Made by a program: the position numbers and the translations under genes
Notes under the pieces: model-generated
What the model was told of the DNA's origin: nothing
The model's input: the letters and a program-made list of their open reading frames with translations, nothing else
The model's database searches: none
Shown here: positions 41,641 to 63,601 of the stretch, piece after piece
Layout of the letters: each line of letters begins with the position of its first letter
Position numbering within the stretch: the stretch's first letter is position 1
Assembly: GCA_965214605.1 (NCBI GenBank)
Contig: OZ243961.1
Location: 1,632,001-1,696,000 of the forward strand
Direction: 5' to 3'
Source: an uncultured Candidatus Binatia bacterium
GTDB taxonomy: Bacteria > Desulfobacterota > Binatia > Bin18
DNA length: 64,000 nt

Positions 41641-44435
41641 TGGCTGACATCTCTACCAATACCGATGGGCTAATCACCTTCACTTTAGACGGGCGGACGC
41701 TTACCGCCCGGCCCGGGGAAACCATTCTCCAGGCCGCCCAGCGACACGGGGTGGAGATTCCCCACCTGTGTTATACCGACGGCCTGCGGCCCGACGGCAA
41801 CTGCCGGGTGTGTGTGGTGGAAATCAGCGGCGAGCGGCCCTTGGCTCCGTCGTGCTGTCGGACGCCGACCAACGGCATGGAGGTGTCGAGTCACAGTGAG
41901 CGGGCGCGTCATTCGCAAAAAATGGTCTTGGAATTGCTTCGGTCCGATGTGACCGATACGCCGTATACGCGCGAGTCGGAGCTGGAGCTGTGGACACACA
42001 AGCTGGAGGTTGGCCCCCCCCGCTTTGCGCCCCGTCAGCAGCTACATTCAGACGTGTCCCACCCGGCTATTGCGGTCAATCTCGACGCCTGTATTCAGTG
42101 CACCCGCTGTCAGCGTGCCTGCCGCGAAGAGCAGGTCAACGATGTGATCGGCTATGCGAAACGCGGCAGCCAAGCCGAAATTGTCTTTGATATTGCCGAT
42201 CCAATGGGTCACAGTTCGTGCGTTGGCTGCGGCGAGTGTGTTCAAGCCTGCCCAACTGGCGCGCTGATGCCAGAGGGTGGTGTAGGGCTGGTTGAACCGG
42301 AGAAAACCGTAGACTCGGTGTGTCCCTACTGTGGGGTAGGCTGTTTGCTGACCTACCACGTCAAAGACAACACAATTCTATATGTCACCGGTCGGGACGG
42401 GCCAGCCAACCACGGCCGGCTATGTGTCAAAGGCCGCTTTGGCTTTGACTATGTGAATCACCCCCAGCGTTTAACACACCCCCTGATCCGCAAGCCCGGC
42501 GTATCCAAATCGGCCGAGGTCAACTTTGATCCGGCTCACTGGGAAGACATCTTTTACAAAGCCGATTGGGACGAAGCTCTTGAGGCGGCGGCCAACGGGC
42601 TTAAGAAAATCCGCGACCAAAAGGGCGGCCATGCCTTGGCCGGCTTTGGTTCGGCCAAGGGCAGCAACGAAGAGGCATATTTATTCCAGAAGCTGATTCG
42701 GACCGGTTTTGGCAGCAATAATGTTGATCACTGCACGCGCTTATGCCACGCCTCATCAGTAGCCGCCTTACTCGAAGGTATTGGATCGGGTGCGGTCTCC
42801 AATCAGGTTGAGGACGTGGCCGAAGCCGAGGTGATCGTCATCATCGGCTCGAACACCCCCGAAAACCATCCGGTTGCCGCCACCTTTATGAAAAACGCGG
42901 CCAAAGCCGGAAAGACGCTGATCGTCATGGATCCGCGGCGCACCGCGTTGGCCCGCCACGCCAGCTACTATCTCCAGTTCAAACCTGACACTGACGTAGC
43001 GCTACTGAACGCCATGCTCCACACCATCATCGAAGAGAATCTCGTCAACACCGAGTTTGTCGAAAAGCGCACCGAAGACTTTGAGCTGCTTCGCCAAAAT
43101 GTGGCCGGCTTTAGTCCCGAGGAGATGGCTCCCGTCTGCGGTATTGAGGCGGCCACAATCCGTGAGGTGGCCCGACGTTATGCCACGGCCTCGGGGGCCA
43201 TGATATTCTGGGGCATGGGCGTCTCGCAGCACATCCACGGCACTGACAATGCCCGGTGTCTGATCGCCCTAGCCTTGATAACCGGCCAGGTCGGCCGTCC
43301 CGGTACCGGTCTGCACCCCCTGCGCGGCCAGAACAACGTCCAGGGTGCCTCTGACGCGGGTCTCATTCCAATGGTCTTTCCCGACTATCAGCGGGTGGAC
43401 AACGAAACAGCCCGGGAGCGGTTTGAAGCGCTGTGGCACACCACGCTGGACGCCAAACCGGGGCTGACGGTTGTCGAGATCATGAATGCCATTCTGGATG
43501 GCAGCCTGCACGGCATGTACATCATGGGGGAAAACCCGGCCATGTCCGATCCCAATCTCCACCATGCCCGCCAGGCGCTGGCCGCGCTCGATCATCTAGT
43601 CGTCCAAGACCTCTTCCTGACCGAAACCGCCGCCTTTGCCGATGTCGTCCTGCCGGCCTCAGCTTTTCCAGAAAAAACCGGCACGTTCACCAACACGGAC
43701 CGCCGGGTACAGTTAGGTCGGCGGGCGCTTGACCCGCCGGGCGAGGCTCGCCAAGACCTGGACCTCCTCCAAGCAATCGCCCGGCGGCTGGGGCTGGCCT
43801 GGCACTATGCAGATGCCGAGAGCGTCTTTGCCGAAATGCGCCAGGCCATGCCCAGCATTGGGGGAATTAGCTGGGAGCGGCTGGAGCAGCACGGCTCGGT
43901 CACCTATCCCTGTACCAGTGAGGCTGACCCAGGGCAGCCGGTCGTTTTCCAAGAAGATTTTCCCACCGCCAGCGGTCGAGGCCGCTTTGTCCCGGCCCGA
44001 CTGATCAGCGCTGACGAGCTGCCGGATGAAGAGTTCCCCTATGTCCTCATTACTGGCCGTCAGCTGGAGCACTGGCATACCGGTGCCATGACCCGCCGCT
44101 CCCGTGTGTTGGATGCGATTGAACCCCAGCCGGTGATTAACATCCATCCTGATGCGCTGACGACTATTGGCGGCACGGAAGGCGCGCTGCTCAGAGTTGC
44201 CTCGCGACGCGGTGAACTCATCGCCGCCGCCCGGGCTGACAGCAACATGCGCCGGGAAGAAATTTTCATACCGTTTTGCTACCAGGAAGCCGCCGCCAAT
44301 CTGCTGACCAATGACGCCCTCGACCCGTATGGAAAAATTCCCGAGTTCAAGTACTGTGCGGTACAGATTGAGGTGGCGAAAGGGGTGGGTGGAGATCTAG
44401 GAGGAGCTGTCGGCCCCAGAACTCCTAAGGGATGA
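41640..44435 (+). CDS. fdhF: Mo/W formate dehydrogenase alpha subunit (Cys-type)
   Basis: N-terminal Fe-S domains, CPYCGVGC, RLCHASS (Cys ligand), LRGQNNVQG, PEFKYCAV. Confidence 0.9.
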   Translation: MADISTNTDGLITFTLDGRTLTARPGETILQAAQRHGVEIPHLCYTDGLRPDGNCRVCVVEISGERPLAPSCCRTPTNGMEVSSHSERARHSQKMVLELLRSDVTDTPYTRESELELWTHKLEVGPPRFAPRQQLHSDVSHPAIAVNLDACIQCTRCQRACREEQVNDVIGYAKRGSQAEIVFDIADPMGHSSCVGCGECVQACPTGALMPEGGVGLVEPEKTVDSVCPYCGVGCLLTYHVKDNTILYVTGRDGPANHGRLCVKGRFGFDYVNHPQRLTHPLIRKPGVSKSAEVNFDPAHWEDIFYKADWDEALEAAANGLKKIRDQKGGHALAGFGSAKGSNEEAYLFQKLIRTGFGSNNVDHCTRLCHASSVAALLEGIGSGAVSNQVEDVAEAEVIVIIGSNTPENHPVAATFMKNAAKAGKTLIVMDPRRTALARHASYYLQFKPDTDVALLNAMLHTIIEENLVNTEFVEKRTEDFELLRQNVAGFSPEEMAPVCGIEAATIREVARRYATASGAMIFWGMGVSQHIHGTDNARCLIALALITGQVGRPGTGLHPLRGQNNVQGASDAGLIPMVFPDYQRVDNETARERFEALWHTTLDAKPGLTVVEIMNAILDGSLHGMYIMGENPAMSDPNLHHARQALAALDHLVVQDLFLTETAAFADVVLPASAFPEKTGTFTNTDRRVQLGRRALDPPGEARQDLDLLQAIARRLGLAWHYADAESVFAEMRQAMPSIGGISWERLEQHGSVTYPCTSEADPGQPVVFQEDFPTASGRGRFVPARLISADELPDEEFPYVLITGRQLEHWHTGAMTRRSRVLDAIEPQPVINIHPDALTTIGGTEGALLRVASRRGELIAAARADSNMRREEIFIPFCYQEAAANLLTNDALDPYGKIPEFKYCAVQIEVAKGVGGDLGGAVGPRTPKG

Positions 44436-45281
44436 AACGCGGAGTTCGCCCAGACCAAATACCGTACCTTTACCGACGTGGGTCCAACAAGCCGCCGCGA
44501 ATACAGGCCACAGCTGTCCAGGCCCAGCGGGGAACTCCAACCCTCCGGTGACGCCATGCAGGTCAATCTCACGTTGCTGGGCGGCAGACCAGCGCACCAG
44601 GTCGCTCCGTTCACCGTTCCAGTGGCTGGCGGCTAACCCTGCCGCCTCCTGCCGAACAGCCCGCATTAGATCCCGATATACGTCTCCCCTCGCTTCACCT
44701 GCGAGACTGGCAACACGGCGCCCGGCAGCGGCAGCGATATCAGCAGAATCGGGGGCAGTGAGCAGTGTACCCTGGCGGATCAACCGCAAGGGCGCAGGAA
44801 AATCCAGACGGCACGGGGTCGAAGTCGGATCACCTGACAGTGGCCAAGCAGCGTCGGATAAAGGCCACCGTTTCGCTTGACAGAATGCCACATCGTTTCC
44901 TGGTCCCAACGGCAAGCGCTCACGGATGGAAAACGGTGCACGTCTCGGGCCAAGACCCATACCAGTGGCGATATCCCAGGCACGCCATAAGACCGGCTCT
45001 AGAGACTCGTCGACGCCCAGCAGTATCCACTCCACAGCTGGAGCAGTCCCTGGGTCAGGTGGGGCAGGCCGCAGAATATAGCGAGGCAAACGGAGGTGTG
45101 GCACCCCATCGGGGGCGAACACCTGCTGGTACGCTTCCGCGTCAACATGGCACAGAGCACGGCCCCAAACGCCACGCACCATCGGTATGGTCGCCCGGAC
45201 CTGTGGTGTTACCAGCAGAAGCCGCCACGCCCTGATTTCCACGCGCTCCAGCAGTGATGTCATGTCCTCTTGCCAGCTCAT
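44397..45281 (-). CDS. cas6: CRISPR pre-crRNA processing endoribonuclease Cas6
   Basis: RG.WG.AL N-terminus, PLRL, C-terminal Gly loop HVGKGTVFGLG; GGAGG RBS. Confidence 0.82.
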   Translation of the reverse strand: MSWQEDMTSLLERVEIRAWRLLLVTPQVRATIPMVRGVWGRALCHVDAEAYQQVFAPDGVPHLRLPRYILRPAPPDPGTAPAVEWILLGVDESLEPVLWRAWDIATGMGLGPRRAPFSIRERLPLGPGNDVAFCQAKRWPLSDAAWPLSGDPTSTPCRLDFPAPLRLIRQGTLLTAPDSADIAAAAGRRVASLAGEARGDVYRDLMRAVRQEAAGLAASHWNGERSDLVRWSAAQQREIDLHGVTGGLEFPAGPGQLWPVFAAACWTHVGKGTVFGLGELRVSSLRSSGADSSS

Positions 45282-45319
45282 CCACACCCTCCCGTTCTCA
45301 TTCCAGCTACTATCTCACT

Positions 45320-45590
45320 CGGTCCCTGGACTTTCAATCCAGGGCCTCCCAACCGATGTTCAGTGGCTGGTATGTGGTGGGGCTACGACGACATTTCAGT
45401 CCCTCCCAAGCGCGCTTCTTCAAAAGACCTTTGGCGAGCGCCTTGGACTTATCTCACTTCTGGTTCCGATACAGACGTATGACTCTCAAAACGTCCCGGT
45501 CCGTGAATTCGCGGCCCAGTTTCACGGCGAGGGTGACACGGCGAGCCCAGGCCGCCCTCGGCTCAAGCGGCGGGGCTTCGGCTGCACTCG
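45320..45590 (-). pseudogene. 3' remnant of an unidentified gene upstream of cas6
   Basis: Frame VTLAVKLGREFTDRDVLRVIRLYRNQK*DKSKALAKGLL..., fused to the truncated DprE1-like gene. Confidence 0.3.
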
Positions 45591-45968
45591 CGCCGAAGGT
45601 TCCGTCGCGGTGATGGTTCTTGCCGTGCACGTCCGCGGCGATCATGCCGCCAACGGTGACGAACCTGGTTCCCGGAACCACCGGCGGAAACCAGCCCCGC
45701 GGCGCGAAGGTGGCCAGGATGTCGGCGAGCAACACGCCGGCCTCGCAGGTCAACAGGCCGGTCTCGGCGTCGAACGCCTGCATCCGGTCCATCGCCAGCA
45801 TGCAGAGCGTCAGGTCCGGGCTGAACGCGGCGTCGCCGTAGGAACGGCCGTTGCCGCGGGCGATGAGGGTATCGCCGCTGCGAAGCAGGGCGGGTAGGCC
45901 TCGCCCTCGCGAAGGTGCTCGACCCGGCAGTCGAGCACCGGATACTGGCCCCAGCCGGAGAGCTTCAT
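45591..45968 (-). pseudogene. DprE1-like FAD-binding oxidoreductase, frameshifted and 3'-truncated
   Basis: MKLSGWG, then shifted frame IARGNGRSYGDAA..PVVPGTRFVTVGGMIAADVHGKNHH; stops abruptly after GTFGA. Confidence 0.85.
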
Positions 45969-46381
45969 GCTCCCGCTCCCTGGAAGACGAAGCGCCGGTC
46001 CAGCCGGTACTTGATCGCATAGCCGGCGGACAGTCCGAGAACGGCCCCCGCGAAGGGCAGCCAGCGCGCATCGCCCATGGCCGCGAACGCCAGCTCCGTC
46101 GCCTAGAAGAGGCAGGTCGTCGGCGCATACAGGGCGAACTCCCGCGAACGACCGCACAGCGAGGCGGGCAGGCCACGGAAGATCCAGCGGCGGTCGAGCG
46201 CATACTTGGCGAGCAGGACGGCGAGGGTGCCCGCCGCCAGCGCCATGTGCAGATCGTAGCGGTCGGTATACAGCACGAGGCTCAGGGCCTGCGTCGCGAT
46301 GTTGACCGCCGTGGCCAGCGCGGCGAACGCGCCATAGCGCAAGGCCAGCGCCGGACCCGAGCCCGAACCTATGGCGCCCAT
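45965..46381 (-). pseudogene. GtrA-family flippase-like protein with premature TAG at 46103-46105
   Basis: RYGAFAALATAVNIATQ..KYALDRRWIF, frame resumes after TAG to KYRLDRRFVF; stop overlaps next ATG. Confidence 0.8.
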
Positions 46382-46542
46382 CACGGCGCAGCGGCGCACG
46401 CGGCCGCCAGTGCCGGACCGGTCAGCTGGCACGTACGGTCCCGCAGCCCAAACATCACCGGGTCGCCGCCTCTCCGTAATCGCGGGAGACGACGGATTCA
46501 AACGCCAACCGTTACGGGTTCGAACAGGCGCGCAATCCCCGT

Positions 46543-48213
46543 TCATCTTGCCACCTTGAAGACAACACCGTCCGCCAGGTCCGCCACCGGTTCCAGGCCC
46601 GGCAATAGCCGCAAGTCGGGCTCACCGTAGTCATAGCCTGCGGAGGAGCCGATATCGAACCAGATCACGTAATCCGGGATGATCTCCGCAAACTGATACG
46701 CCATCTGGCGGCGGGATGCCCCGAGAGCATGGTAGCGATTCATGCCCTCTCCACCTATGTAGAGAGACAAGGGCTGTGGCACGTTACTGAATATCTCTCC
46801 CGCAACGGGATTTGCGCGGACATATCGCAGCACCTCGGAATCGACCCAGCGTGGCCCATTGAAGAGGAGGAACTGGTAGCCGCAGTTTCCGAGCATGATG
46901 GTGGAGGCTGCCGGAACTATCTGTTTCGCCACCCCCAGGGATAGAACGATCGTCACGATGGCGACCAGCACGCTTCCTTTCTTGCCCGGCCTCATCGTTC
47001 GAACTATAGGCAGGCTGCCGACGTTTCCCAAAAGCCTCCTCTCCCGTTCGTGGACGAGAATACGGTCCAGTACGAACACCCCGGCTATCAGGAGCGGAAT
47101 ATACAGCGGAGTCAGGTATCTCGACGTAATACCACCCGGCCCTATGTAGATAGCGGCCAGAAGCGATATGGCCACGATGAGCAGGACGAGGTACGTCAGC
47201 GCAAAGCCCCCGAACAGCCAGAGAGGGCGCCAGTGGGCAACTGTCCATCGCTTCCAATGCTCTCCGACGAGGATGCAGCCGACCGTCGCCAGGACCGCGG
47301 CGGCCATCGCCAGCAACGCAAGTACCGCTCTGTCGAAGAGAGGCCACCAAGGCAGCCCGAGGAATCGGCACCTCTGAGGCTGCACCCAACTCTCCAGGAT
47401 GTCGTAAACATCTCGCAGCATCGTCGGCAAGGGATAGCCGGCGGGCGGCTGGTGCGGGGTGAGCGCTCCGATGGCCAGGTAATTGCGCAAAAGCCACAGA
47501 ACCATCGGCACCGCCACGATCAGCGAGTAAGCCGTGACGCGTCTTACCCTCTGGGCCATGGGGACCCCCGTCCGATGGGGGGGGGGGTAGAAGAGAAGCA
47601 ACAGCCCCACGAAAGCCGGCACAGCCACTCCGATGTACCTGCTTTGCCAGGCCAGGGCGCTGAACGCCGCCGCCCAGACCAGCGCCCGGGCCCTACCCTC
47701 GGTCAGGAACCTGTCGGTCTGGATCAGGGCGAGGGTCACCAGCAGGATGAACAGGGGATCGGACAATGCGCGCGGCGACTCCTCGAGTAGAGGGATTGCC
47801 AAAGCCGTCGCGAGACAGCCCCATACCGCCAGAAATCGGGACTCCAGACGCTGCCGTAGGTCCCCGCCCACCACGAATACGGTCAGTCCGAAGATGACGG
47901 CGTTGAGGGGGCCGGCAACGGCGATTGGATCGAATATCCCCAAGCTGGCCGCAGCCAGAAGCAAGGGGTAGAGAGGCGGCCACCAAGCGAGAGGAAGTCC
48001 ATCGAATCCGCTAACGCCTTCTCCGGCCAGCAGATTTCGGGCGGCGGCTATGTAGTGCGCCGAATCCGGAGTCAGTGTCACTCCGAAGGCGATCTCGCGC
48101 CCCAGCACCAGGGCGACACCCAGCAAGGCGATGGCGGCCGTCAACAGGAGAAGGCGGTCGTCGGGCCGAAAGCGCGCCGGCAAGGCCGTCAACGAGCTTG
48201 CATTGAGCGACAT
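46543..48213 (-). CDS. Polytopic GT-C fold glycosyltransferase (ArnT/PMT-like)
   Basis: TPDSAHY..AARNL, WPPLYPLLLA, LSDPLF, SRYIG, RYLTPLY, many TM segments; TGATG coupling to upstream gene. Confidence 0.75.
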   Translation of the reverse strand: MSLNASSLTALPARFRPDDRLLLLTAAIALLGVALVLGREIAFGVTLTPDSAHYIAAARNLLAGEGVSGFDGLPLAWWPPLYPLLLAAASLGIFDPIAVAGPLNAVIFGLTVFVVGGDLRQRLESRFLAVWGCLATALAIPLLEESPRALSDPLFILLVTLALIQTDRFLTEGRARALVWAAAFSALAWQSRYIGVAVPAFVGLLLLFYPPPHRTGVPMAQRVRRVTAYSLIVAVPMVLWLLRNYLAIGALTPHQPPAGYPLPTMLRDVYDILESWVQPQRCRFLGLPWWPLFDRAVLALLAMAAAVLATVGCILVGEHWKRWTVAHWRPLWLFGGFALTYLVLLIVAISLLAAIYIGPGGITSRYLTPLYIPLLIAGVFVLDRILVHERERRLLGNVGSLPIVRTMRPGKKGSVLVAIVTIVLSLGVAKQIVPAASTIMLGNCGYQFLLFNGPRWVDSEVLRYVRANPVAGEIFSNVPQPLSLYIGGEGMNRYHALGASRRQMAYQFAEIIPDYVIWFDIGSSAGYDYGEPDLRLLPGLEPVADLADGVVFKVAR

Positions 48214-49655
48214 CACAACGCGGCGGCGAACGCGGCCGCCATCGCCAGGCCGGCCAGCCAGCTCGTGCGGTCCCGCAGCGTGAACACCATCGGATCGTCG
48301 TCCACCGCCCCGCGGTTGGCGAGCAGCAGCATGCGCCCCAACCAGTAGATCAGCAGCGGGCAGATCAGCCACAGAAACTCCACCCGGCGATACAGCACGC
48401 TCACTTCCGGGCTCCAGATGTACAGGGCGAAGATGATCACCGAGGCAAGGCCGGCGGCCGTGCCGAACGCCGTCAGCACCGGAAGATCCTCAATGCGCCA
48501 GGCGCGTCCTTCGACCGCAGTGCCCTCGGATACGCGCAACCTCTGCAGCTCGCTCTGGCGCTTGACGGTGGCCAGGGACAGGAACGCGAACATGAAGAAG
48601 GCGAGGAACCATGGGGACAGCGTGATCGAGACCACTATCCCCCCGGCGAAGACGCGCACCATGTAGAGCAGGCCGAGCGTCACCACGTCGACGAACAGCC
48701 TTCGTTTCAGCGACAGCGAGTAGGCCAGGGTCAGGATCAGGTAGAGCAGCACGCAGAGCCCACTTGACCAGGAAAGCTTGAAGGCGAGGGCGAGCCCGCC
48801 CGCCGCCAGCACCGCGCTAAGGCCCATCGCCGGCAGCAACGCCACCTTCCCCGCCGCCATGGGGCGGCGGCGCTTGCTCGCGTGCCGCCGGTCGTGGGGC
48901 AGATCAAGCAGGTCGTTGAGCAAGTACGCGCCCGATGCGCAGACCGACAGTGCCGCGAACATCCCGGCCGCCGTCAGATACGGTCCGGCACCGGTCTCGT
49001 GGGCGGCGGCGAGAGGTGCGAACACCAGCAGATTCTTGCCCCACTGGTGGGGGCGCAATGCCCGGAGCCAGTCGTGCGGACCGCTCCCGAGCCCCGGAAG
49101 AAACCGGGCGTCTTCGTCCAGCGCGTGCACTTCCCGAGCGAGGCGTGCCGGGAGGCCGACGCCGACGGCGCGCCGCGCGTGCCTCCACACCGCCAGGTCG
49201 CGCCGTTCGTTGCCGGCGTAATCGAACCCGCCCTCGCCGAAGCGCTCGACCAGGGCGGCGGCCTTGGCCTCGCCGGCCAGATTGGTGCGCCCGTCGGAGG
49301 CGAGAAAGCCCGCCGTGCCCACGGCTTCGGCAAGCGGCGCGACCGCCAGCTCGTCGGCGGCCGACGCCAGCCAGACCTCGCGTCCCGCGGCCTTGGCGGC
49401 GGCGATTTCGGCGAGCACCGCCGGGTTCAGCACCAGCGTCGACGGCGCAAGCGGAACCTTCTGCGCGACCCTGCGCTTGAGCGCCGCGCGTCCCTCGGCG
49501 AGCCAGAAGAGAAGGCTGAGAAGATTGAGGGGGGAGGCGGCGAACAGCCGGGCGACGCCTTCGATTAGCAGGTCGCCGCTGACCAGCGTGCCGTCGACGT
49601 CAACGACTAGGGGTGTCGCGGACGAACGTACCGGATGTATCGGGTGACCCTCCAT
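48213..49655 (-). CDS. UbiA-family prenyltransferase with N-terminal HAD-like domain (decaprenyl-phosphate phosphoribosyltransferase-like)
   Basis: VVDVDGTL HAD motif, LRPHQWGKNLLVF, YLLNDLLD..DRRH..KRRRP, DDDPMVF. Confidence 0.88.
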   Translation of the reverse strand: MEGHPIHPVRSSATPLVVDVDGTLVSGDLLIEGVARLFAASPLNLLSLLFWLAEGRAALKRRVAQKVPLAPSTLVLNPAVLAEIAAAKAAGREVWLASAADELAVAPLAEAVGTAGFLASDGRTNLAGEAKAAALVERFGEGGFDYAGNERRDLAVWRHARRAVGVGLPARLAREVHALDEDARFLPGLGSGPHDWLRALRPHQWGKNLLVFAPLAAAHETGAGPYLTAAGMFAALSVCASGAYLLNDLLDLPHDRRHASKRRRPMAAGKVALLPAMGLSAVLAAGGLALAFKLSWSSGLCVLLYLILTLAYSLSLKRRLFVDVVTLGLLYMVRVFAGGIVVSITLSPWFLAFFMFAFLSLATVKRQSELQRLRVSEGTAVEGRAWRIEDLPVLTAFGTAAGLASVIIFALYIWSPEVSVLYRRVEFLWLICPLLIYWLGRMLLLANRGAVDDDPMVFTLRDRTSWLAGLAMAAAFAAAL

Positions 49656-49675
49656 GTCTGGTCTGGCGTGTCTCA

Positions 49676-49748
49676 GTTTCAACCCCGTACTTGTATATCG
49701 TAGAGCAACGCGTTTCAATCCCTTATCAAGCGGGGCAGAGGTTTAGTC
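49676..49748 (-). CRISPR. Solitary variant CRISPR repeat (49712-49748) plus 25-nt spacer-like stretch and 11-nt repeat 3' remnant
   Basis: GTTTCAATCCCTTATCAAGCGGGGCAGAGGTTTAGTC matches the array repeat at 32/37 in the same orientation; GTTTCAACCCC at 49676-49686. Confidence 0.8.
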
Positions 49749-51409
49749 TTGCCCTGTTCCACATCGTCCCGGCGCTTTTGGTGGAGCCAGCGGCCATTCC
49801 AGTCGTCACGCTCCACTCCCAGTTTATCCGGGTCAATGCCCGCACCGGCCAGCCATTCTGCGGCTGCTACCGTTGCTGTGTCGAGGAAGCGCAGGGCGGC
49901 GGGGTCGATATACAGTTCACCGGTGAGGAATGCCAAGGAGGCAAACCGCTTGCACAGCGCAATCGCGGAAAAGCGCTCTTGGCCGCGTAAGCGGATACCG
50001 TTGACGGTGATCTTGGCAGCGGACTTGTCCCAGAAGCCGCGCGAAGCGTTGAGGCCTGCCGGCCCCATTTGCTCATAGGAGCCGAGCAGGCTGCACTTGG
50101 GCGGAGAAGCCTCGTCCTGAGAGGTCTGTCGGATTGGGATGTGGAGAATAGAACGCTGCGCCTCTCGCAACCGCGCCGACGCTTCAAGCCGGATGGGCCT
50201 GCCAGAGACCGGCTGAGCGTTAGCCGTAGTAGTCGGGACGCTCCTTGCCTGGGATCGCGTCGGCCAGCCCACGTACCTTGGCGATCTCCGGCCACACGCC
50301 ATCGAATGAGTCCGTACTTCCGAGGAGTTGAGCCAAGGTTTTGTTGTCAAGGGCACGCTCAGGTAGGGTCGCTGTCCTTACCTCAAAAAAGCTCTCTCTC
50401 TGCCCCTTCCAACGCCGCGCCCAATCGGGATCAATGGCCGATAGCGGCCGGTCGAGGCGGGCATACAGTGCCTGCCAGGCGGCACCAAGCCGCGCGGACC
50501 GCCTTGGCGCAGACGTCTGCCATACTGTGCACGTCCGCGCCGTTCCGACCCCACGGAACAAGCGCGACAAAACGATTGGGAATAGACGGAGCGCGGCACG
50601 CTTCTTCCGATGGAAGCGGCATGACGCCTCCAAGACCGGCGTGGTCACGCAACCACAAGTCCATCAGCGGGTTACCGCAAGGCCAGATAGACAAGCGCGG
50701 TCGGACCGAGTGTCTCCAATATCGGGCGGATGCCCTGGAAGACGAGCCATGATAGGATGGCACTTCCCGACCACAAACCGCGCACGCTGCGAGCTGCCGC
50801 TATGAAGCTCTGTACCGGACCGAGCGAGAGTGACAAGTAGGCACGGCCTTGCACGCCTTCACTAGCCCACAGGCCACTCGCTATGTCCGCGTGCTGGATT
50901 AGGGCGTGATCGGGAACGCGGGTGTCGGCGGACAGCCATACGAACCCGTGACCCAAGCGTTTTGCGAGCCGCTCGGGGAGAAGCCGCCAGAGGGCCAGAA
51001 ACCGGGAACGCGCGGCTTGTAGACCATCCACGATACCGCCGATGGTTTCTAATACGCTGACCTCGTCGATGGCCAAGCCCTCCAGAACGCTCGCCTGCAC
51101 GCTGACCGGGTGGCGCACTTCGATCCGTCCGTTCTCTGGACCGACCGCGCGCTCACCGTTGGCGCCTGCGGTCGGCATCGGGAGACGCTCAGCGATCGCA
51201 GCGAGTTGATCTGCCAGCGAAGCCAGACTCTTGATCTCATTCCGGGTTACATCCCAGTCAAGCGCGCAAGAAGTGTGGCGGACGGCTCGTCCCTCATGTG
51301 TACGTATGTCCAGGGCCTTATCAATCAGGTCGTGAAGGTAGGCCAGCAGCAGTCGATCCTAGGCGATCTGTGCTAGTTTTCCGTACTCGCTGTGGGCTCT
51401 CTCAACCAT
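49749..51409 (-). pseudogene. cas10: cas10/cmr2 pseudogene (TAG at 51359-51361, several frameshifts, truncated before the GGDD palm domain)
   Basis: LLLAYLHD..DKAL, ADTRVPDH, SLGPVQSFIAAARSVR.LWSGS, GNPLMDLWL, PNRFVALVP, KCSLLGSYEQMGP spread over successive frames. Confidence 0.85.
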
Positions 51410-51489
51410 GACATTGTTCATTGTTATTATAGTTTGCACCTAATGATCTATTCACATGAAAGGGGAAGAGAGGTACTCAATTCCTCACA

Positions 51490-51635
51490 CCAAAAAGCTG
51501 GCGGCAGGACGATTCGAGTCCATTGACCGTACCGAATCTCAAAAGCTTAGCTTTCAGCAAGGTTCGCTCGACATCGGCTCCATCGCCGGTACCGACGGCA
51601 AGTACCAGCGCTTTTGGACCATTGTAGGTTGTCAT
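51490..51635 (-). pseudogene. 5' stub of a CARF gene paralogous to 59282-60619
   Basis: MTTYNGPKALVLAVGTGDGADVERTLLK..(shift)..GQWTRIVLP aligns with RVLVLTIGTGNPKDLEGSLY..GHWARVVLFP. Confidence 0.65.
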
Positions 51636-51670
51636 TCGCGTCTCTCTCAGTGTTTGCCGCTAGAGTCCCA

Positions 51671-51880
51671 TCAAGGGGTAAAGAACAACGCCTCCAGAGA
51701 AACCTCGACCTGTTTGTTGTCGATGATCTTGGAGGCGTCAAGAATCTCAATTTCCAGCGGCCGTCCATTTTTAGAAAAGTGCACGATGACCCCCTCAGTC
51801 ATGTCTGTGGAGTCGCAGGGTTGTCCCTCGCTCAACTGAATGGTGAGCACGTCCGCATCACGAGAGTATACGATCTTCAT
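51671..51880 (-). CDS. DUF2283-family small protein (putative antitoxin)
   Basis: MKIVYSRDADVLTIQL..GVIVHF..GRPLEIEILDAS. Confidence 0.8.
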   Translation of the reverse strand: MKIVYSRDADVLTIQLSEGQPCDSTDMTEGVIVHFSKNGRPLEIEILDASKIIDNKQVEVSLEALFFTP

Positions 51881-52200
51881 ATTTTCCCCCTCCCTGGAAA
51901 TAGCGCTTTGCAAGCGGACGATACGCGGTCACTGCAACAGGCCGCCTTTCTTCATACTCATATATCACCCGAACGAGATGTTCTCCTCTGCGGAGATGAG
52001 CAATAAAACGGCCATGATGACCGACGAGCACCTCTTCAGGGAAGAGCATCGTCCGTACCCAGATCGTCTGTAAGACGCCACTGTTCGAGCCTTCTCAGGA
52101 CGTGACGGGTGAGCAAGACCGCAACACTTTTCCCATTCGCCTGAATTTCATATACTTTCCCACGCGGATGGTCATGGATTGCGGTGAACCAGTACGCCAT
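51858..52200 (-). pseudogene. DUF4258-like (RelE-like) putative toxin, frameshifted near 52045
   Basis: LTRHVLRRL..(shift)..FPEEVLVGH.GRFIAH..LVRVIYEYE..VAVTAY; overlaps the DUF2283 start. Confidence 0.65.
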
Positions 52201-52254
52201 AGTATATGGGTGCTCGTTAGCGACGTCTCCGTTGAGGTGTCCGTGCACCGGCGC

Positions 52255-52420
52255 GTTGGTCCGCCAGCGAAGCTAAGCTCTTGATCTTATCCCCGGTCAC
52301 ATCCCAGGCGAGCGCACGAGCCGCGTACCGGGCGGCGCGTCTCTCATATCCGGGTATGTCCTGGGCCTTGTCAATCGGGTCATGGAAATAGGCCAACAAC
52401 AATCGATCCCAGTCACCAAC
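52255..52420 (-). pseudogene. cas10: Second, short 5' stub of cas10/cmr2
   Basis: DWDRLLLAYFHDPIDKAQDIPGYERRAARY..AWDVT..IKSLASLADQ aligns with the 51205-51362 copy. Confidence 0.8.
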
Positions 52421-52502
52421 CGGTCGATTTTCCTGACCGCCATGAATCAGGGCAGGGGCCTGTGTGAGGTGACGGTCGGCGTTATGGACGGGGAATTTCG
52501 CT

Positions 52503-53097
52503 ATGACTTTTCGTAATCGAATCACCCCCCACCGGGTCTCAACCCGGCTTGCGCACGGCATTGCTGCTTGTGACGGCGTGGTGGTGCGTCACACTGGTGG
52601 CCTGCTCCAAGCCCAGGATGCCTCGGTTATTCGGAGGAACGCCGGACACGGTGACGCGGCTCAGCTTGGCCGCCAGCCAATATCTGAACCCGAATGTCGC
52701 CGGCGTCCCGTCACCCGTTGTGCTGATTCTGTATGAACTGGCCGAGACGACCGGTTTTGAGGGCGCTGCGTTCAACCAGCTCTTCTATAACGACCGGCAG
52801 ACGCTCGGGGGCGGGGTGCTGGCGCGGCAGGAGTTCCGCATCGAACCCGGCAAGATCCTCACCATGAACCGCGTTCTGGACCCGAAGACAACGCATCTGG
52901 GATTTGTTGCCGGCTACCGGATCGAACAAAACCGCTGGCGCCTCATGGTCGATGTGGAGCCCCAGACGACCCAGAAGCATGTCATTATCGTTGGCTCACA
53001 CACCCTATCCTTTTCTGAGGCCGCGGCCGCTCCAAGGCATGAACTCACACCCGAGCCTTTGGTCAGCAGGCTTTCCTCTCTCTTCGAGCAAACGTAA
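52503..53097 (+). CDS. tssJ: Type VI secretion lipoprotein TssJ (5' end probably frameshifted)
   Basis: LVAC lipobox, LNPN..G.PSPVVL.LYEL, LGFVAGYR..WR; ATG 52503 is out of frame with the body (52549-53097). Confidence 0.75.
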
Positions 53098-53905
53098 CGG
53101 CAGAACTCAGCAAACCCATCTGGTATCAGGGCATGTTCATGCGCCCGCAGCATTTTCAGCAACAGAAGCGCTACTGGGAGACCTTCATCAATGAGCATAG
53201 CTCGGGCCTGTTCGGGTACGGCTGGGGACTCCGGCAGCTTGAGATTGACCAATCCGCGCTTGAGGTGGGCAGCTTCCATATCAGCCGGATCGTCGTCACC
53301 CTGCCGGACGGTACCCCGCTCAGCGCACCAGGCGGTGCCGATTTGCCACCGCCCCGGGCCTTTAGGGCTGAGGCCGCTGGCGAACGCGTGATGTTGGCCC
53401 TCCCCGTCCGCCGGGCCGATGCAACCGAAGTCTCAGGGACAAATGCCACCGAACACGAACGGCGGTGGCGAAGGCTCTCAGTCTCGCTGCGCGACACCAG
53501 CAGCGAGGACGAGGACTATTGCGATGTCCAGGTGGGCCGTCTGGCTCCAGCGTTATTGCTGGAAAAGGAAGTGACGGGCGCCTACGGGACTGTGCCGATC
53601 GCCCGGATCGAAAGCGCCTCCGAGAACGCTATCAGCCTGGATGAAAACTATCTGCCACCCGTGATGAACTGCAACGCTCATGCCGGATACAGGCGTGTGC
53701 TGGGCGATATCCGCGCAATCCTGCACCACCGTGCCGAGAGGCTGGCCAAACAGCTCGACCCGTCAACAGCCACGGGCCTGTCGGACATACTGGATTTCCT
53801 GCTGCTCCAGATGATCAACCGGCACGAAGCCACTTTTGTGCATATGATGCAGCTCAATCATATTCAGCCTGAACGGGCCTTTGTTGCTACGGCCGAGTTG
53901 GCCGA
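53097..53905 (+). pseudogene. tssK: Type VI secretion baseplate TssK, start mutated (ACG) and 3'-truncated
   Basis: KPIWYQGMFMRPQHFQQQ, WGLRQLEID, PDGT, YLPP, DFLLLQMINR; family-like sequence ends at about 270 aa. Confidence 0.8.
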
Positions 53906-54093
53906 CGTGCCCATGTGTTCCGACCTTGGCCCCCACCACCACGACCCGCCATCACACTGATCGCCATCCCGCAACCACGGCCTATATTGCCCGCTTACGC
54001 CTGTTTCGACCACCGGATGCCCGATGCCCACACGCCCGCCCCGCGTCAACCAACCCCCTTCCCACCTGCGTGACTACAGGATCGTCCTGACGG

Positions 54094-55060
54094 TCAACTG
54101 CCAATGTATTGATCGTAAGCTGCAGCGAGCATTTGAGAATCCGTGTACCTGGGCTGCCAATTCAGTTGGTTCCTGGTGTGGGAGATGTCAAGTACCAAAG
54201 TCTTGTCGGCAACGGCAAATTGCTCAGGGTACAGTATGGTCAGGCCAGACCAATCGAGCACGGTCAGGATATTTTTTACAAGCAGCCCTGGTATTTTCAG
54301 AATCTTCGACGAAGATCCCTTTGATTGAATCAAATCGAGTAGAAGATCGTATACGCATGGCGGGTCTTCTGATCCAAGGTTGTATTCGGAGTTTGGCACG
54401 TTTTTATCCAATGCACAGATTATGGCGGAAACACAATCATGCACGGAAACCATCTGATAACAATTCTTGCCGTCACCAATGATTGGTACGGGCAGGTTGT
54501 TTCTGATATTCGAAAACAGCTTCTCCAATACGCCGAGTCTGCCTGGTCCGATTATCAATCGAGGCCTGAAGATAGTAATGTTCATGTTGCGTTTTCGATA
54601 TTCCTGAATCAACAGCTCTGATTTCTTCTTGCTATTGCCGTACTCGCCATTAGGACATTTCACATGATCAGTTCTTACGGGGAGGGATTTCGGATTCCCA
54701 TAGATCATGTCAGTACTGAAGAAAATCATCTTCTTGCATTTTGCTCGAACCATGTGTTCCAGGACGAGTCTAGTGCCCGTGGTATTGACTTCGTCAAAAA
54801 ATCTCTGTCGTCGAAAACGAGGTACGGAAGAATGGTATTGTCTGGCAGCAAGATGATAAACTGTATCAGATGGTGTCAATAAAAGATTTTCGATTGAAGA
54901 CTTATCCGTAATATCCAATAGACGAAATTCGATTTGATTCAGATGGTTGTTTTGCATGTCATGAATATCACAACATACGACCCTTTCGTCCCTTTCAATC
55001 AGCTTACGTGCCAGAAATCGACCTACGAATCCCAGCTCCACCTATGATGATATGGGCCAT
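54094..55060 (-). pseudogene. NAD-dependent epimerase/dehydratase with +1 frameshift in the Rossmann motif
   Basis: MAHIIIGGAG|FVG split by an extra G near 55032; YHLAA, YGNSK, RPRLIIGPGRLG; low GC. Confidence 0.8.
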
Positions 55061-55065
55061 GGTCT

Positions 55066-55455
55066 CTAATTGCTTTTCGAAATGAACACTATGCCAGTAC
55101 AAATCAAAAATATACCGATGATTCGAAACATATTCATCGATTCATGGAAAAATAGATAACCGGCAACAGCTACAACAACATATCCAATGCTCAGAAAAGG
55201 ATAGGCAAAGCTTACTTCTGCTCGTAACAGAACGACCATCCAAAGTCCAACGCTCGAGATATAGCAGAATATCGCAATTATAACATAGTGATTGGTGCGA
55301 ATTTCATAAGAAATTGATCCAATGTCCTTGAATGTCAAAGCTATAGGACCAGGGATAGTCATTCCCTTTTTCAGAAATAACTGGGCTCCTGCATTAAGGA
55401 GGACACTCGTTAATATCAACGATATCAGTTTTGTGGAGGATTCGTTATTGTTCAT
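55066..55455 (-). CDS. SMR/EamA-like small transporter (ArnE/ArnF-like flippase subunit)
   Basis: 4 TM segments, AQLFLKKGM, EVSFAYPFLSIGYV, FHE; low GC. Confidence 0.8.
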   Translation of the reverse strand: MNNNESSTKLISLILTSVLLNAGAQLFLKKGMTIPGPIALTFKDIGSISYEIRTNHYVIIAIFCYISSVGLWMVVLLRAEVSFAYPFLSIGYVVVAVAGYLFFHESMNMFRIIGIFLICTGIVFISKSN

Positions 55456-55499
55456 AATTTATTGTCCAGGGAAGATGGTGTTGGGAGGAGCATTATCCT

Positions 55500-55757
55500 G
55501 CCCTTCCGCGCCCGTGTCCAGCACTACCATGAGGGTCGGGCACTTCGCACCGAGACGGTCATCAACAACACTTACGACTTCGATGTCGGCAGAAGGCTGC
55601 ACAACCTTGAACAGCTCTGCGAGCTCGGCTTCGCCGCCAATCGACGCCTGCTGCGTGTACAACGTATCAGCCATGACGCGACTATCGGAGTGAAGGTGTT
55701 CGATGAGCTGAGCCGTCCTCGCGTGGTGGGCCGGCAGCGAGCTCCCGCGCTACGCTT
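55500..55757 (+). mobile_element. Internal fragment of a conserved putative mobile-element (transposase-like) protein
   Basis: HYHEGRALRTETVINNTYDFDVGRRLHNL..LGFAANRRLL.VQRISHD..QRAPALR resembles, from memory, a multicopy IS-like protein family; frame runs directly into the repeat. Confidence 0.45.
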
Positions 55758-57739: not shown

Positions 57740-57936
57740 CCTCTACCAAATTTCTTCTTATCTGACAAGCGTTTACCTCAACGTTTTTCGTAACCCAAGG
57801 ATTGAGACGGCACCCATCGCTTGATGAGGCAGCTCTCAATTTGGCGAATGGCGCGAAACTGTAGCAGCTTCAAAGAATTGGCCAATTTCGTACCCCCAGG
57901 TGATTCCTAGAGCCACCTAGAGGTTACGACTGCCGC
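57740..57936 (-). promoter_or_regulatory. CRISPR leader
   Basis: Non-coding, relatively AT-rich segment between the cas2 stop and the first repeat; repeated TCGTAACC-like motifs. Confidence 0.75.
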
Positions 57937-58224
57937 TCACACTATGAAGACATCCTCCTCGCCAACTCGCTCCGTCTTCTCGCTCACGCCCATATAGACC
58001 TGCTCCTTCTCACAGGAAGCGCAGAGGCGACAAGCGAGCACGTTGTCCTCGGTCGAATCAATCAGAGCAGATAGCTCGGACAGGCACTTGTCAAAGAGCA
58101 CACGATCAACCACTAGCTCGAACACGCTGTCCTGGACACGATCACCGTATGCATCCAAGCATTCGGCCACCCGACGACGACGCTGGTCACTAGTAATATC
58201 ATAGCATACAACAAAGCGGGGCAT
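57937..58224 (-). CDS. cas2: CRISPR-associated endonuclease Cas2
   Basis: VVCYDITSD.RR.RVA..L..YG.RVQDSVFE. Confidence 0.95.
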   Translation of the reverse strand: MPRFVVCYDITSDQRRRRVAECLDAYGDRVQDSVFELVVDRVLFDKCLSELSALIDSTEDNVLACRLCASCEKEQVYMGVSEKTERVGEEDVFIV

Positions 58225-58235
58225 CAGTAATCTCC

Positions 58236-59273: not shown

Positions 59274-59281
59274 AACGCTTA

Positions 59282-60619: not shown

Positions 60620-60732
60620 CCCTCTGAATCTGGAGTCTGATACACTTCTCTATCGTCACCCGCGGAGCCGACTAGATAAAATCAAGTATGAGGCAGAACC
60701 TACCTTGTCGTCTTATTCCTGCCTTTGCCCCG

Positions 60733-60843
60733 GCAGACTGTCGAGTCTCTTACGCCACGTTGTCTCCCATTATCATGACTTTCTTAGGCTTCTTGAAACG
60801 GATTATCCAGCAGATTGTCGAGTCTCTTACGCCACGTTGTCTC
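60733..60843. repeat. 34-bp direct repeat duplicating the 3' end of the cmr6-cmr1 gene
   Basis: GCAGA(C/T)TGTCGAGTCTCTTACGCCACGTTGTCTC at 60733-60766 and 60810-60843, 33/34 identical. Confidence 0.9.
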
Positions 60844-63589: not shown

Positions 63590-63601
63590 TATCCGTCCTC
63601 C

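What the first reader, a model, noticed from the sequence alone, without database searches (positions are those of the whole stretch)
44397..55757. A 10.5-kb cargo mosaic inside a type III-B locus, with junctions falling exactly on CRISPR repeats
Seen: between the array and cas6 lie at least six unrelated segments of differing GC, most of them truncated. Two junctions coincide with repeat edges: the transposase-like frame ends at 55757/55758 and cas10 is cut at 49748/49749. The array's trailer repeat is perfect, while a 32/37 variant repeat in the same orientation sits 6.0 kb further on. Known: trailer repeats are normally the degenerate ones, and Cas1-Cas2 integrates at repeat borders. Inference: the 6-kb block may occupy a spacer position, meaning repeats act as capture or recombination sites for gene-sized DNA. 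Alternatives are a collapsed tandem second CRISPR locus or a mis-assembly.
Basis: partly seen in the sequence, partly recalled or inferred. Interest (0 to 1): 0.72.

Follow-up and report, generated by a model that had tools for sequence, protein, structure and literature searches.

The report
Foreign gene blocks inside a CRISPR array
The old end of a type III-B CRISPR array holds two multi-kilobase blocks of DNA from other bacteria, joined exactly at repeat edges, which suggests that CRISPR repeats can take in gene-sized DNA.

Summary
The window has a 25-repeat type III-B array (55758-57739) transcribed on the minus strand. A 32/37 solo repeat lies 6,009 nt beyond its perfect trailer repeat. 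A partial repeat and a degenerate terminal repeat (45394-45429) lie just upstream of cas6.

The whole 10.3 kb between array and cas6 therefore lies inside the old array trailer. Same-genus genomes G007 and G001 have fdh, cas6 and array contiguous.

Three of four junctions between array and foreign DNA sit within 2 nt of a repeat edge: 55757/8, 49748/9 and 49675/6. The cargo includes a cas10 pseudogene and at least three fragments about 91% identical to MAGs titled Gammaproteobacteria.

Public contigs from other studies bridge three of the four junctions (55757/8 only in X1), at the host's depth. This is not a mis-assembly.

Two more genomes of the family have unrelated 6.7-kb and 7.4-kb blocks at the same position. 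No recombinase, complete IS or Ku gene explains the pattern.

My best reading (confidence about 0.4) is aberrant Cas1-Cas2-type joining of long DNA ends to repeat borders, tolerated only at the trailer. Ordinary illegitimate recombination plus decay of a second locus remains a serious rival.

The parts
41640..44435 (+). fdhA-like molybdopterin oxidoreductase. This is the conserved left flank of the CRISPR-Cas island.
   Evidence: Pfam. It is 74-85% identical in DNA in G001-G007, G014, G020 and G024.
44397..45287 (-). cas6
   Evidence: Pfam CRISPR_Cas6, E 6.5e-10. It is 77% identical in DNA to cas6 of G007 and G001, which lies directly after their arrays.
45394..45429 (-). Degenerate terminal repeat of the ancestral array.
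   Evidence: It aligns position for position with the terminal repeats of G001 (L025:2004-2040) and G007 (L021:8555-8591). The local score is 26, against a shuffled 95th percentile of 25.
45430..45588 (-). 159 nt of unassigned sequence. It begins with a weak match to the 5' part of a repeat (CCGAAGCCCCG..CCGCTTGA).
   Evidence: Scores of 22 and 16 are not above the shuffled null, whose median is 20. Treat as inconclusive.
45589..49675 (-). Block 2. One contiguous foreign fragment holding HAD-UbiA (48213-49658, full length), a 609-aa membrane protein (46543-48372; only a faint NCBIfam glycosyltransferase hint, no Pfam family), a UbiA 3' remnant (46379-46468) and a DprE1 fragment (aa 39-134 of 449, ending at 45589).
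   Evidence: NCBIfam. It is collinear with L030-L035 at 77-91% DNA identity. Five of the six alignments stop at 45589 and the L033 one at 45590, while those genomes continue. The 5' end ...TGAGACACGCC lies at 49675.
49676..49687 (-). Partial repeat: the 3' end ..GGGGTTGAAAC in crRNA sense.
   Evidence: It is one of only two GTTTCAA[TC] sites in 11.4 kb; the other is the solo repeat 24 nt away.
49688..49711 (-). 24-nt spacer-like remnant.
   Evidence: No partial target was found in 84 kb around the locus.
49712..49748 (-). Solo variant repeat, 32/37 to the array repeat.
   Evidence: No repeat within 3 mismatches of it was found in 54 other family genomes.
49749..51362 (-). cas10/cmr2 pseudogene covering aa 27 to about 565 of 884, with at least 3 frameshifts and one stop.
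   Evidence: tblastn against P0001 gives 59-75% identity. blastn gives 71% to the intact cmr2.
51671..52248 (-). DUF2283 gene (51671-51913, intact) and DUF4258-like gene (51858-52248, frameshifted). I read this as a putative toxin-antitoxin pair.
   Evidence: 89% DNA identity to G005, where the pair is intact. Pfam on the G005 copies gives DUF2283 at 1.9e-12 and DUF4258 at 0.013, which is weak. An 82% paralogue lies at C1:943743-944169.
52247..52415 (-). Second cas10 5' fragment (aa 25-80).
   Evidence: 68% aa identity. family D3 (77% to 51201-51362).
52549..53897 (+). tssJ (52549-53097) and the N-terminal 257 of 429 profile positions of tssK (53133 to about 53897).
   Evidence: Pfam. The genome has no other copy of either gene.
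53898..53999 (.). 102-nt interspersed element.
   Evidence: 11 near-full copies at 89-94% identity in G071. It also occurs in G072 and G074.
53999..55493 (-). Fragment F2: NAD-dependent epimerase (54094-55041) and an ArnE/F-like small transporter (55066-55455). GC is about 0.40.
   Evidence: 91% DNA identity to G071:C1:4016920-4018413 and to G073. Pfam and NCBIfam.
55506..55757 (+). Fragment F1: an internal piece (roughly aa 325-406) of a multi-copy gene of about 533 aa. A filler of about 12 nt (55494-55505) precedes it.
   Evidence: Homology ends at 55757, and the repeat starts at 55758.
55758..57739 (-). Active array: 25 identical repeats and 24 spacers of 39-52 nt.
57740..57936 (-). Leader.
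   Evidence: It lies between the first repeat and cas2. In this sense the repeat ends in ATTGAAAC.
57937..64000 (-). cas2, cas1, csm6, a fused RAMP protein, cmr5 and cmr4. The intact cmr3, cmr2, a 403-aa gene and a Cas_NE0113 gene lie just beyond the window.
   Evidence: Pfam.

Best explanation
The region from 45430 to 55757 is the old trailer of a single type III-B array. Kilobase-sized pieces of foreign DNA were joined to the borders of CRISPR repeats there, in the places where spacers normally sit. I propose that the joining was an aberrant reaction of the locus's own Cas1-Cas2 integrase.

Proposed steps. Free 3'-OH ends of long DNA were transferred to the spacer-side border of one repeat. 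That DNA came from lysed neighbouring bacteria and from another III-B locus. In the oldest event the other end was also transferred to the leader-side border of the next repeat. Later fragments were added at the same repeat border, and their other ends were joined untidily. This would explain why block 1 is a stack of fragments with no repeats between them, and why about 12 nt of filler sits at 55494-55505.

Why the trailer. Such inserts survive only at the trailer end. There they cost one old spacer and leave cas6 with its own upstream region intact. Today the cargo is most likely inert.

Shown versus inferred. Shown: the anatomy, the foreign origin of the fragments, the precision of the junctions, the recurrence in relatives and the read support. 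Inferred: the enzyme, the order of events and the inertness of the cargo.
For: (1) Three of four junctions between array and foreign DNA lie within 2 nt of a repeat edge. At 55757/8 the G072 relative continues CACCGAC where the window starts the repeat. At 49748/9 the evidence is. At 49675/6 it is. My hand estimate of the chance of at least 3 of 4, if ends fell evenly over an 80-nt repeat-spacer unit, is about 0.007.

(2) The cargo is random chromosomal DNA, not a mobile element. Block 2 and F2 match two places about 430 kb apart in G071, at 77-91% and 91% identity. F1 matches G072 at 91%. Relatives at 90-95% identity are 5-15 times more abundant than the host in the same public runs.

(3) No other joining enzyme is in sight. 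None of 81 tyrosine-recombinase matches and none of 25 serine-recombinase matches in G000, G056 and G059 lie in the blocks. No Pfam transposase or integrase appears among the 20 ORFs scanned in 44397-63183. There is no Ku gene, no complete IS and no hidden repeats inside the blocks.

(4) The pattern recurs. G059 has a 6,715-nt block and G056 a 7,405-nt block between the last perfect repeat and a variant repeat. In G056 cas6 follows about 210 nt later. The three blocks share no similarity.

(5) In G059 a Cas_NE0113 fragment starts at aa 219 directly at a repeat's 3' edge. A 73-nt stretch that is 95-97% conserved elsewhere ends directly at another repeat.

(6) In G006, seven ORF-bearing units of about 180-190 nt sit between repeats.

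(7) G007 and G001 show the uninterrupted state.
Against: The two repeats around block 1 differ at 5 of 37 positions. An integration event should leave identical copies, so later drift has to be assumed.

The inserts are about 100 times longer than the 39-52-nt spacers of the same array. From memory, no in vivo precedent for this is known to me, and my searches found none.

Block 1 is a composite without internal repeats. The far end of block 2 cannot be placed on a repeat.

The inserts sit at the trailer, not at the leader where integration normally happens. None of the 24 spacers matches G071-G075.

Part of the G059 block seems to be native DNA: the only thrS match that search returned in G059. 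Not every block is therefore plainly foreign.

The two cas10 fragments fit a decayed second locus as well as they fit capture.
Confidence: 0.4

Rival explanations
1. Ordinary decay. A second III-B locus once stood in tandem between the present array and cas6. It was eroded by deletions. Foreign DNA entered by illegitimate or homology-facilitated recombination at a place where insertions are neutral. The repeat-edge junctions are coincidence.
For: Two extra cas10 fragments lie between the array and the solo repeat, with a putative toxin-antitoxin pair between them. G059 has two tandem III-B loci, the first with a truncated cas1 (aa 1-46) and a one-repeat array. The island as a whole is variable: G004 has an empty site and G005 holds only an IS plus the same gene pair. 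One junction lies inside a repeat (49687/8) and one cannot be placed (45588/9). Selection alone can explain the trailer position.
Against: Three of four junctions lie within 2 nt of repeat edges in this genome, and two or three more do so in G059. The fragments 91% identical to MAGs titled Gammaproteobacteria are no part of any CRISPR locus. No second leader, cas1, cas2 or cmr3-6 remnant is seen in 44001-58000 apart from the cas10 pieces. Neither the region's 20 scanned ORFs nor a blastn of it against its own genome brought up one; a direct tblastn with those proteins was not run.
Confidence: 0.3
2. Spacer-target recombination. Normal spacers had been taken from these foreign genes. Later homologous recombination between a spacer and matching incoming DNA dragged in the neighbouring sequence. 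The foreign gene then seems cut exactly at the repeat.
For: This needs no new enzymology and explains exact edges. Recombination between spacers and their targets has been reported for staphylococcal phages (recalled, not read here). The stretch 55757 to 55716 read as crRNA is antisense to the IS-like gene, which is the productive orientation for type III (inferred).
Against: The two ends of block 1 come from unrelated sources, so no single donor would carry both. Three of the four virtual spacers are in the sense orientation: cas10, HAD-UbiA and DprE1. If fragments were stacked one after another at the same edge, a matching spacer would have been needed each time. Yet the sequence at the edge was then the previous fragment.
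Confidence: 0.12
3. A mobile element whose attachment site mimics the CRISPR repeat integrated site-specifically and then decayed. The model is the S. pyogenes prophage that integrates into repeats.
For: Prophage integration into every repeat of a type II-A array, with an 8-bp shared core, is documented (passages of 10.1101/2020.10.09.333658). It leaves the insert flanked by repeat-like sites, one of which may be a hybrid.
Against: The blocks of G000, G056 and G059 contain no integrase or resolvase (0 of 81 and 0 of 25 matches). The junctions are at repeat edges, not inside a core. The cargo is a patchwork of chromosomal fragments from at least four sources. The three blocks share nothing.
Confidence: 0.05
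4. Chimeric assembly of a metagenome, with false joins at repeats.
For: The genome sits in communities that also hold abundant organisms with 90-95% identical copies of block 2 and F2.
Against: Contigs with 0 differences cross every array-facing junction at the host's own depth of about 10-14x, not the 50-150x of the look-alikes. This holds in runs of two further studies for 49412-50106, and in one of them for 44952-45631. The solo repeat is unique in sequence, so it cannot cause a repeat-collapse join.
Confidence: 0.02

Closest known systems
Canonical Cas1-Cas2 spacer integration
   Same: Foreign DNA is joined exactly at repeat borders and sits between two repeats. Several fragments from one donor lineage are present. 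An intact cas1-cas2 stands beside the array.
   Different: The inserts are 250 nt to 6 kb instead of 39-52 nt. The flanking repeats are not identical (32/37). The position is at the trailer. One slot holds several fragments with no repeats between them.
Prophage integration into CRISPR repeats (S. pyogenes phage AP1.1; passages read)
   Same: Gene-sized DNA lies between repeats of an array. Integration can also delete or rearrange repeat-spacer units.
   Different: That case uses a phage integrase and an 8-bp core inside the repeat, and the insert is one coherent prophage. Here there is no recombinase, the junctions are at repeat edges and the cargo is a patchwork.
Arrays split by IS elements, and degenerate trailer repeats
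   Same: The array is interrupted. Repeats become more degenerate toward the trailer: 0, then 5, then many mismatches.
   Different: No complete IS, terminal inverted repeats or target duplication is present. Only an internal piece of about 250 nt of a multi-copy gene is there, and the genome has no other copy.
Recombination between spacers and their targets (staphylococcal phages; recalled, not read)
   Same: It would place foreign DNA flush with a repeat without a new enzyme.
   Different: It needs matching spacers at each end. The block ends come from unrelated sources and are mostly in the non-targeting orientation.
Casposons (Cas1-family integrases that move kilobase elements; recalled, not read)
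   Same: A Cas1-family enzyme inserts kilobase-sized DNA.
   Different: Casposons carry their own casposase and terminal inverted repeats, and they duplicate the target. None of these is seen here.
Tandem or decayed CRISPR-Cas loci
   Same: Extra cas10 fragments are present. G059 has two III-B loci in tandem with a collapsed first array.
   Different: This does not account for the gammaproteobacterial fragments or for the precision of the junctions.

Membership tests
Type III-B CRISPR-Cas locus with array | Cmr2/Cas10, Cmr3-6 RAMP proteins, cas6 and a repeat array with a leader | tested here: met
   Pfam hits for Cmr2_N plus palm2, Cmr3, Cmr5, RAMPs, Cas6, Cas1, Cas2 and Csm6. 25 repeats are present.
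Product of Cas1-Cas2 spacer integration | Insert bounded on both sides by repeat borders | tested here: met
   Block 1 is bounded at 55757/8 and 49748/9, within 2 nt. The near end of block 2 is at 49675/6. Its far end is inconclusive.
Product of Cas1-Cas2 spacer integration | The two flanking repeats are copies of one repeat | tested here: not met
   The identity is 32/37. Later drift is possible but not shown.
Product of Cas1-Cas2 spacer integration | Insert length set by the integrase ruler | tested here: not met
   The inserts are 6,009 and 4,087 nt, against 39-52 nt for the 24 spacers.
Product of Cas1-Cas2 spacer integration | Integration at the leader-proximal repeat | not testable with these tools
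   The inserts now lie behind repeat 25. They could have been leader-proximal when they were made.
Site-specific integration of a mobile element into a repeat | Integrase or recombinase gene inside the insert | tested here: not met
   None of 81 PF00589 matches and none of 25 PF00239 matches in G000, G056 and G059 fall inside the blocks.
Site-specific integration of a mobile element into a repeat | Crossover inside a shared core of the repeat | tested here: not met
   Homology to relatives runs up to the first or last base next to the repeat.
IS insertion into an array | Complete IS with ends and a target duplication | tested here: not met
   Only roughly aa 325-406 of a protein of about 533 aa is present. 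It is the sole trace in the genome.
Decayed tandem second III-B locus | Remnants of a second gene set and a second leader and array | tested here: inconclusive
   Two cas10 fragments are present. No second cas1, cas2, cmr3-6 or leader turned up in 44001-58000, in the 20 ORFs scanned or in the blastn of the region against its own genome; I ran no tblastn with those proteins. The solo repeat could belong to either array.
CreA-like regulatory mini-array | Pseudo-spacer with a partial match to a nearby promoter | tested here: not met
   The 24 nt between the solo and partial repeats has no match with 6 or fewer mismatches in 84 kb.

The most novel reading that the evidence does not exclude
In this bacterial family the type III-B adaptation machinery joins kilobase-sized DNA to repeat borders. 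That DNA includes chromosomal pieces from other phyla. In G059 it includes 20.9 kb holding a whole second CRISPR-Cas locus. CRISPR arrays would then act as entry gates for horizontal gene transfer and as vehicles for moving CRISPR-Cas loci themselves.
Probability: 0.3. Interest if true: 0.88.

Novelty: new variant of a known kind. Interest (0 to 1): 0.68.

Why it matters
If repeat borders take up long DNA, CRISPR adaptation is more than a 40-bp memory device. It would also be a rare, homology-free route by which genes cross between distant bacteria living together.

It would also give a simple answer to how whole CRISPR-Cas loci come to sit in tandem.

The idea is directly testable with purified Cas1-Cas2 and long DNA.

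Even on the ordinary reading, the locus marks the trailer slot between the last repeat and cas6 as a recurrent dumping ground. Array-finding and annotation tools would split or miss it.

Tried and rejected
Other strains or arrays
- Exact or degenerate repeat patterns found nothing in genome contigs or metagenome contigs.
- The trailer-most spacer found nothing in metagenome contigs.
- These collections may leave out the window's own genome.
- Among 55 family genomes, only the window's own holds a repeat within 3 mismatches of the solo repeat.

RNA
- No RNA holder was listed. Nothing can be said on read-through or Cas6 cuts.

Read laying gaps
- No single short-read contig spans the whole stretch.
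- Parts between the listed contigs are tangled by abundant look-alikes.

The minus-frame 96-aa ORF at 55462-55749
- It has 136 hits in the representative library.
- Those hits vary from 46 to 556 aa, have no Pfam family and look like antisense ORFs.
- The plus frame has far stronger hits to proteins of about 533 aa.
- I therefore rejected the minus-frame ORF as a gene.

Other negative checks
- Hidden repeats at inner junctions of the blocks: none above chance.
- CreA-like regulator: no target.
- Ku-dependent end joining: no Ku gene.
- Spacers against donor-like genomes G071-G075: no match.
- Relatives of tssJ/tssK and of the cas10 pseudogene: nothing above 66% in 26 MAG genomes. Their sources stay unknown.
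- The small ORF of the G006 array: only self hits.
- Literature on very long spacers or genes between repeats: searches gave nothing to the point except the prophage preprint. One search gave only a general review, which I did not open.

Tools not used or closed
- Supplementary files were not consulted.
- Structure and complex prediction were not used.

My error
- One search used a wrong pattern, with 8 N instead of 7. It found nothing even in the window's own genome, so its result means nothing. One search repeats it correctly on the family only.

Full report
Setting. The window is G000:C1:1632001-1696000, on a 4.31-Mb contig of a 9-contig genome rated 99.99% complete. A type III-B locus lies on the minus strand. 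Just past the window are a Cas_NE0113 gene, a 403-aa gene, intact cmr2 (P0001, 884 aa) and cmr3. Inside the window are cmr4, cmr5, a fused RAMP protein, csm6, cas1 and cas2. A leader of about 200 nt follows, and then 25 identical 37-nt repeats at 55758-57739 with spacers of 39-52 nt. Read on the minus strand the repeat ends in ATTGAAAC, so the leader is at 57740-57936 and the trailer end at 55758. cas6 (44397-45287, minus strand) lies 10.5 kb further on, beside a conserved fdhA gene.

What relatives show. In the same-genus genomes G007 and G001 the order is fdhA, cas6, about 45-135 nt, degenerate terminal repeat, array, cas2, cas1, with nothing in between. G004 has the empty site. G005 has only an IS, a DUF4258/DUF2283 gene pair and a duplicated fdhA 3' end. 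The island's other flank is at window coordinate about 77530.

An alignment of the cas6 upstream region with G001 and G007 shows that the window keeps a strongly degenerate terminal repeat at 45394-45429, in the homologous position. Everything from 45430 to 55757 therefore lies inside the former array.

Anatomy of the insert, in crRNA sense. After the last perfect repeat comes block 1 (55757 down to 49749, 6,009 nt). Its parts are:
- F1: about 250 nt of a multi-copy gene of about 533 aa, roughly aa 325-406.
- About 12 nt of filler.
- F2: 53999-55493, an epimerase and an ArnE/F-like gene, GC about 0.40.
- A 102-nt interspersed element.
- tssJ and the first 257 of 429 profile positions of tssK.
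- A 170-nt cas10 5' fragment.
- A DUF2283 gene and a frameshifted DUF4258-like gene.
- A cas10 pseudogene covering aa 27 to about 565, in three frames with a stop.

Then come the solo repeat (49748 down to 49712, 32/37), 24 nt, and the 3' 12 nt of another repeat.

Block 2 follows (49675 down to 45589, 4,087 nt). It holds a full-length HAD-UbiA gene, a 609-aa membrane protein with only a faint NCBIfam glycosyltransferase hint, a UbiA 3' remnant, and a DprE1 gene cut at aa 134 of 449.

After block 2 come 159 unassigned nt, the terminal repeat remnant, and cas6.

Where the pieces come from. The genome has no other tssJ, tssK, HAD-UbiA or IS-like gene. Block 2 is collinear with a cluster in chromosome-level MAGs titled Gammaproteobacteria, Pseudomonadales, Thalassobaculaceae and Nitrospirales, with protein identity up to 88% and DNA identity of 77-91%. 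Five of the six alignments stop at 45589 and the sixth (L033) at 45590, while those genomes continue.

F2 is 91% identical to a place in G071 about 430 kb from G071's copy of block 2. F1 is 91% identical to G072. The 102-nt element has 11 near-full copies in G071. No match above 66% was found for the cas10 pseudogene, and none for tssJ/tssK, in the 26 MAG genomes tried. The pseudogene is 68-71% identical in DNA to every cmr2 of the family that was found.

Junctions.
- At 55757/8 the window reads ...GCGCTACGCTT|GTTTCAATCC and G072 reads ...GCGCTGCGCTT|CACCGACC. The break is exact and there is no microhomology.
- At 49748/9 DNA homology to the intact cmr2 runs to 49751 and protein homology to the edge.
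- At 49675/6 homology to L030 and L031 begins with TGAGAC directly after ...GTTGAAAC.
- At 45588/9 the next bases resemble the 5' part of a repeat, but not above shuffled controls.
- One junction, 49687/8, lies inside a repeat.

By hand: if ends fell evenly over an 80-nt unit, the chance that an end lies within 2 nt of an edge is about 0.125. The chance of at least 3 of 4 is then about 0.007. This is a rough figure, computed after the pattern had been noticed.

Is it real DNA? Eleven public runs from seven studies hold part of the stretch. All laid runs are stored as contigs. Contigs with 0 differences cover:
- X1: 44000-45631 (part of a 58.5-kb contig), 49412-50105, 50077-53951, and 55165-55755 joined to 57701-58500 with the array collapsed.
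- X5: 44952-45631 and 49465-50106.
- X6: 49478-49857.

X1 may be the source sample. X5 and X6 belong to other studies. The host's depth is about 10-14x throughout. Over 45589-49658 and 53680-55131 there are additional contigs at 50-150x and 90-95% identity, with loose ends at 45589 and 49658. These are other, abundant organisms that carry the donor-like sequence. This excludes a chimeric assembly and shows that donor-like bacteria live beside the host.

Recurrence. Nine of 55 family genomes carry the repeat core.
- G059 (another genus) has 30 perfect repeats, then 6,715 nt, then a variant repeat with 4 mismatches. The block holds a DDE transposase fragment, a thrS gene, a Mutator transposase fragment and a binding-protein gene.
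- G059 has a further variant repeat 11.9 kb upstream. It differs from the first variant at only 2 positions. It is preceded by csm6, cas1 aa 1-46 and 24 leader-like nt. It is followed at once by a Cas_NE0113 gene starting at aa 219 and a whole second III-B locus.
- Thus 20.9 kb, including a complete locus, lies between two repeats of one type.
- Next to the first variant repeat, a 73-nt stretch that is 95-97% conserved in three other genomes ends at the repeat. An IS-like segment starts 4-5 nt from its other edge.
- G056 has 44 repeats, then 7,405 nt, then a variant repeat with 2 mismatches, then about 210 nt, then cas6. Its block has no relative in the other 54 family genomes, apart from an 833-nt element repeated within G056.
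- The three blocks share no similarity.
- G056's other array, G046 and G020 end normally.
- G006 has seven units of about 180-190 nt, plus a 432-nt interval, between variant repeats. The seven units each carry a ribosome-binding site and a 41-48-codon ORF.

Mechanism. No recombinase lies in any of the three blocks. There is no complete IS, no Ku gene and no internal repeat. From established knowledge, not tested here, the only enzyme known to cut and join DNA exactly at both borders of a CRISPR repeat is the Cas1-Cas2 integrase. An intact cas1-cas2 pair stands beside the array.

I therefore favour aberrant joining of long DNA ends at repeat borders. Later fragments would be stacked at the same border, with their other ends joined untidily. 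The trailer position can be explained by selection. A kilobase insert elsewhere would cut off the downstream spacers. At the last slot it costs one old spacer and leaves the conserved stretch upstream of cas6 untouched.

This reading has real weaknesses: unequal flanking repeats, a hundred-fold excess in length, no precedent, and one unplaced junction.

The main rival is plain decay of a tandem second locus with illegitimate insertions. It fits the cas10 fragments and G059's tandem loci, but not the junction precision or the gammaproteobacterial pieces. Spacer-target recombination would give exact edges, but it needs matching spacers that the composite structure makes unlikely.

Literature seen.
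- Passages of 10.1101/2020.10.09.333658: prophage integration into repeats by a phage integrase with an 8-bp core.
- Search listings and abstract starts only for PMC8390005, PMC10284694, PMC4524480 and PMC8860593.
- Recalled, not read: work on spacer-target recombination in staphylococci, on casposons, on homology-facilitated illegitimate recombination, and on Cas1-Cas2 site choice.
- Searches found no report of kilobase inserts flush with repeat edges. The library does not hold most subscription journals.

Verdict. This is a new variant of a known kind of system: a CRISPR array whose last slot holds gene-sized foreign DNA. A plausible but unproven link to the integrase exists.

Noticed in passing
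L022:7322-9896 (G006, same genus): The trailer half of the array uses a variant repeat. It alternates a duplicated 46-nt spacer with seven units of about 180-190 nt, plus a 432-nt interval. The seven units each carry a ribosome-binding site and a 41-48-codon ORF with a hydrophobic first half and an acidic tail. No cas6 homologue was matched between this array and fdhA. The ORF has only self hits in the 5.8-billion protein set.
   Followed up: partly
window 56544-56585: This spacer matches the host's own chromosome 42/42 at C1:51258-51299. The target gene was not identified.
   Followed up: no
window 56940-56986: 30 nt of this spacer match C1:337619-337648 exactly. The same 30 nt are 93-97% conserved in at least seven other genomes of the class. 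No tRNA was found there.
   Followed up: partly
window 53898-53999: A 102-nt interspersed element is present in 11 near-full copies in G071. It also occurs in G072 and in G074, a MAG titled Nitrospirales. The host has only this one copy.
   Followed up: partly
L023:5829-7864 (G005): At the otherwise empty island site, fdhA is followed by an IS5-like transposase in two frames. Then come an intact DUF4258/DUF2283 pair and a 133-nt duplicate of the fdhA 3' end at 83% identity.
   Followed up: partly
L129/L128 (G059:C1:1161785-1177973): Two III-B loci stand in tandem. The first ends in cas1 aa 1-46, 24 leader-like nt and a single repeat. The second has a divergent cmr2 (24-31% aa identity) but a cas1 that is 88% identical to the window's.
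   Followed up: partly
L030-L054: The cluster of HAD-UbiA, a large membrane protein gene and DprE1 is shared at 58-88% protein identity. It appears in chromosome-level MAGs titled as many different phyla: Gammaproteobacteria, Nitrospirales, Binatia, Alphaproteobacteria, Vicinamibacterales and Bryobacterales. This suggests wide transfer.
   Followed up: no
L130/L138 (G004:C4:3423236-3423259): An orphan repeat of this class sits in a genome whose fdhA site is empty. A multi-copy IS-like segment lies about 600 nt away.
   Followed up: no
window 55462-55749 minus strand: An antisense ORF of the IS-like fragment has 136 hits among predicted proteins of very uneven length. These are probably miscalled antisense ORFs in public gene calls.
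   Followed up: yes
C1:943743-944169: A second copy, 82% identical, of the DUF4258/DUF2283 region lies beside an HSDR_N-type gene elsewhere in the genome.
   Followed up: no
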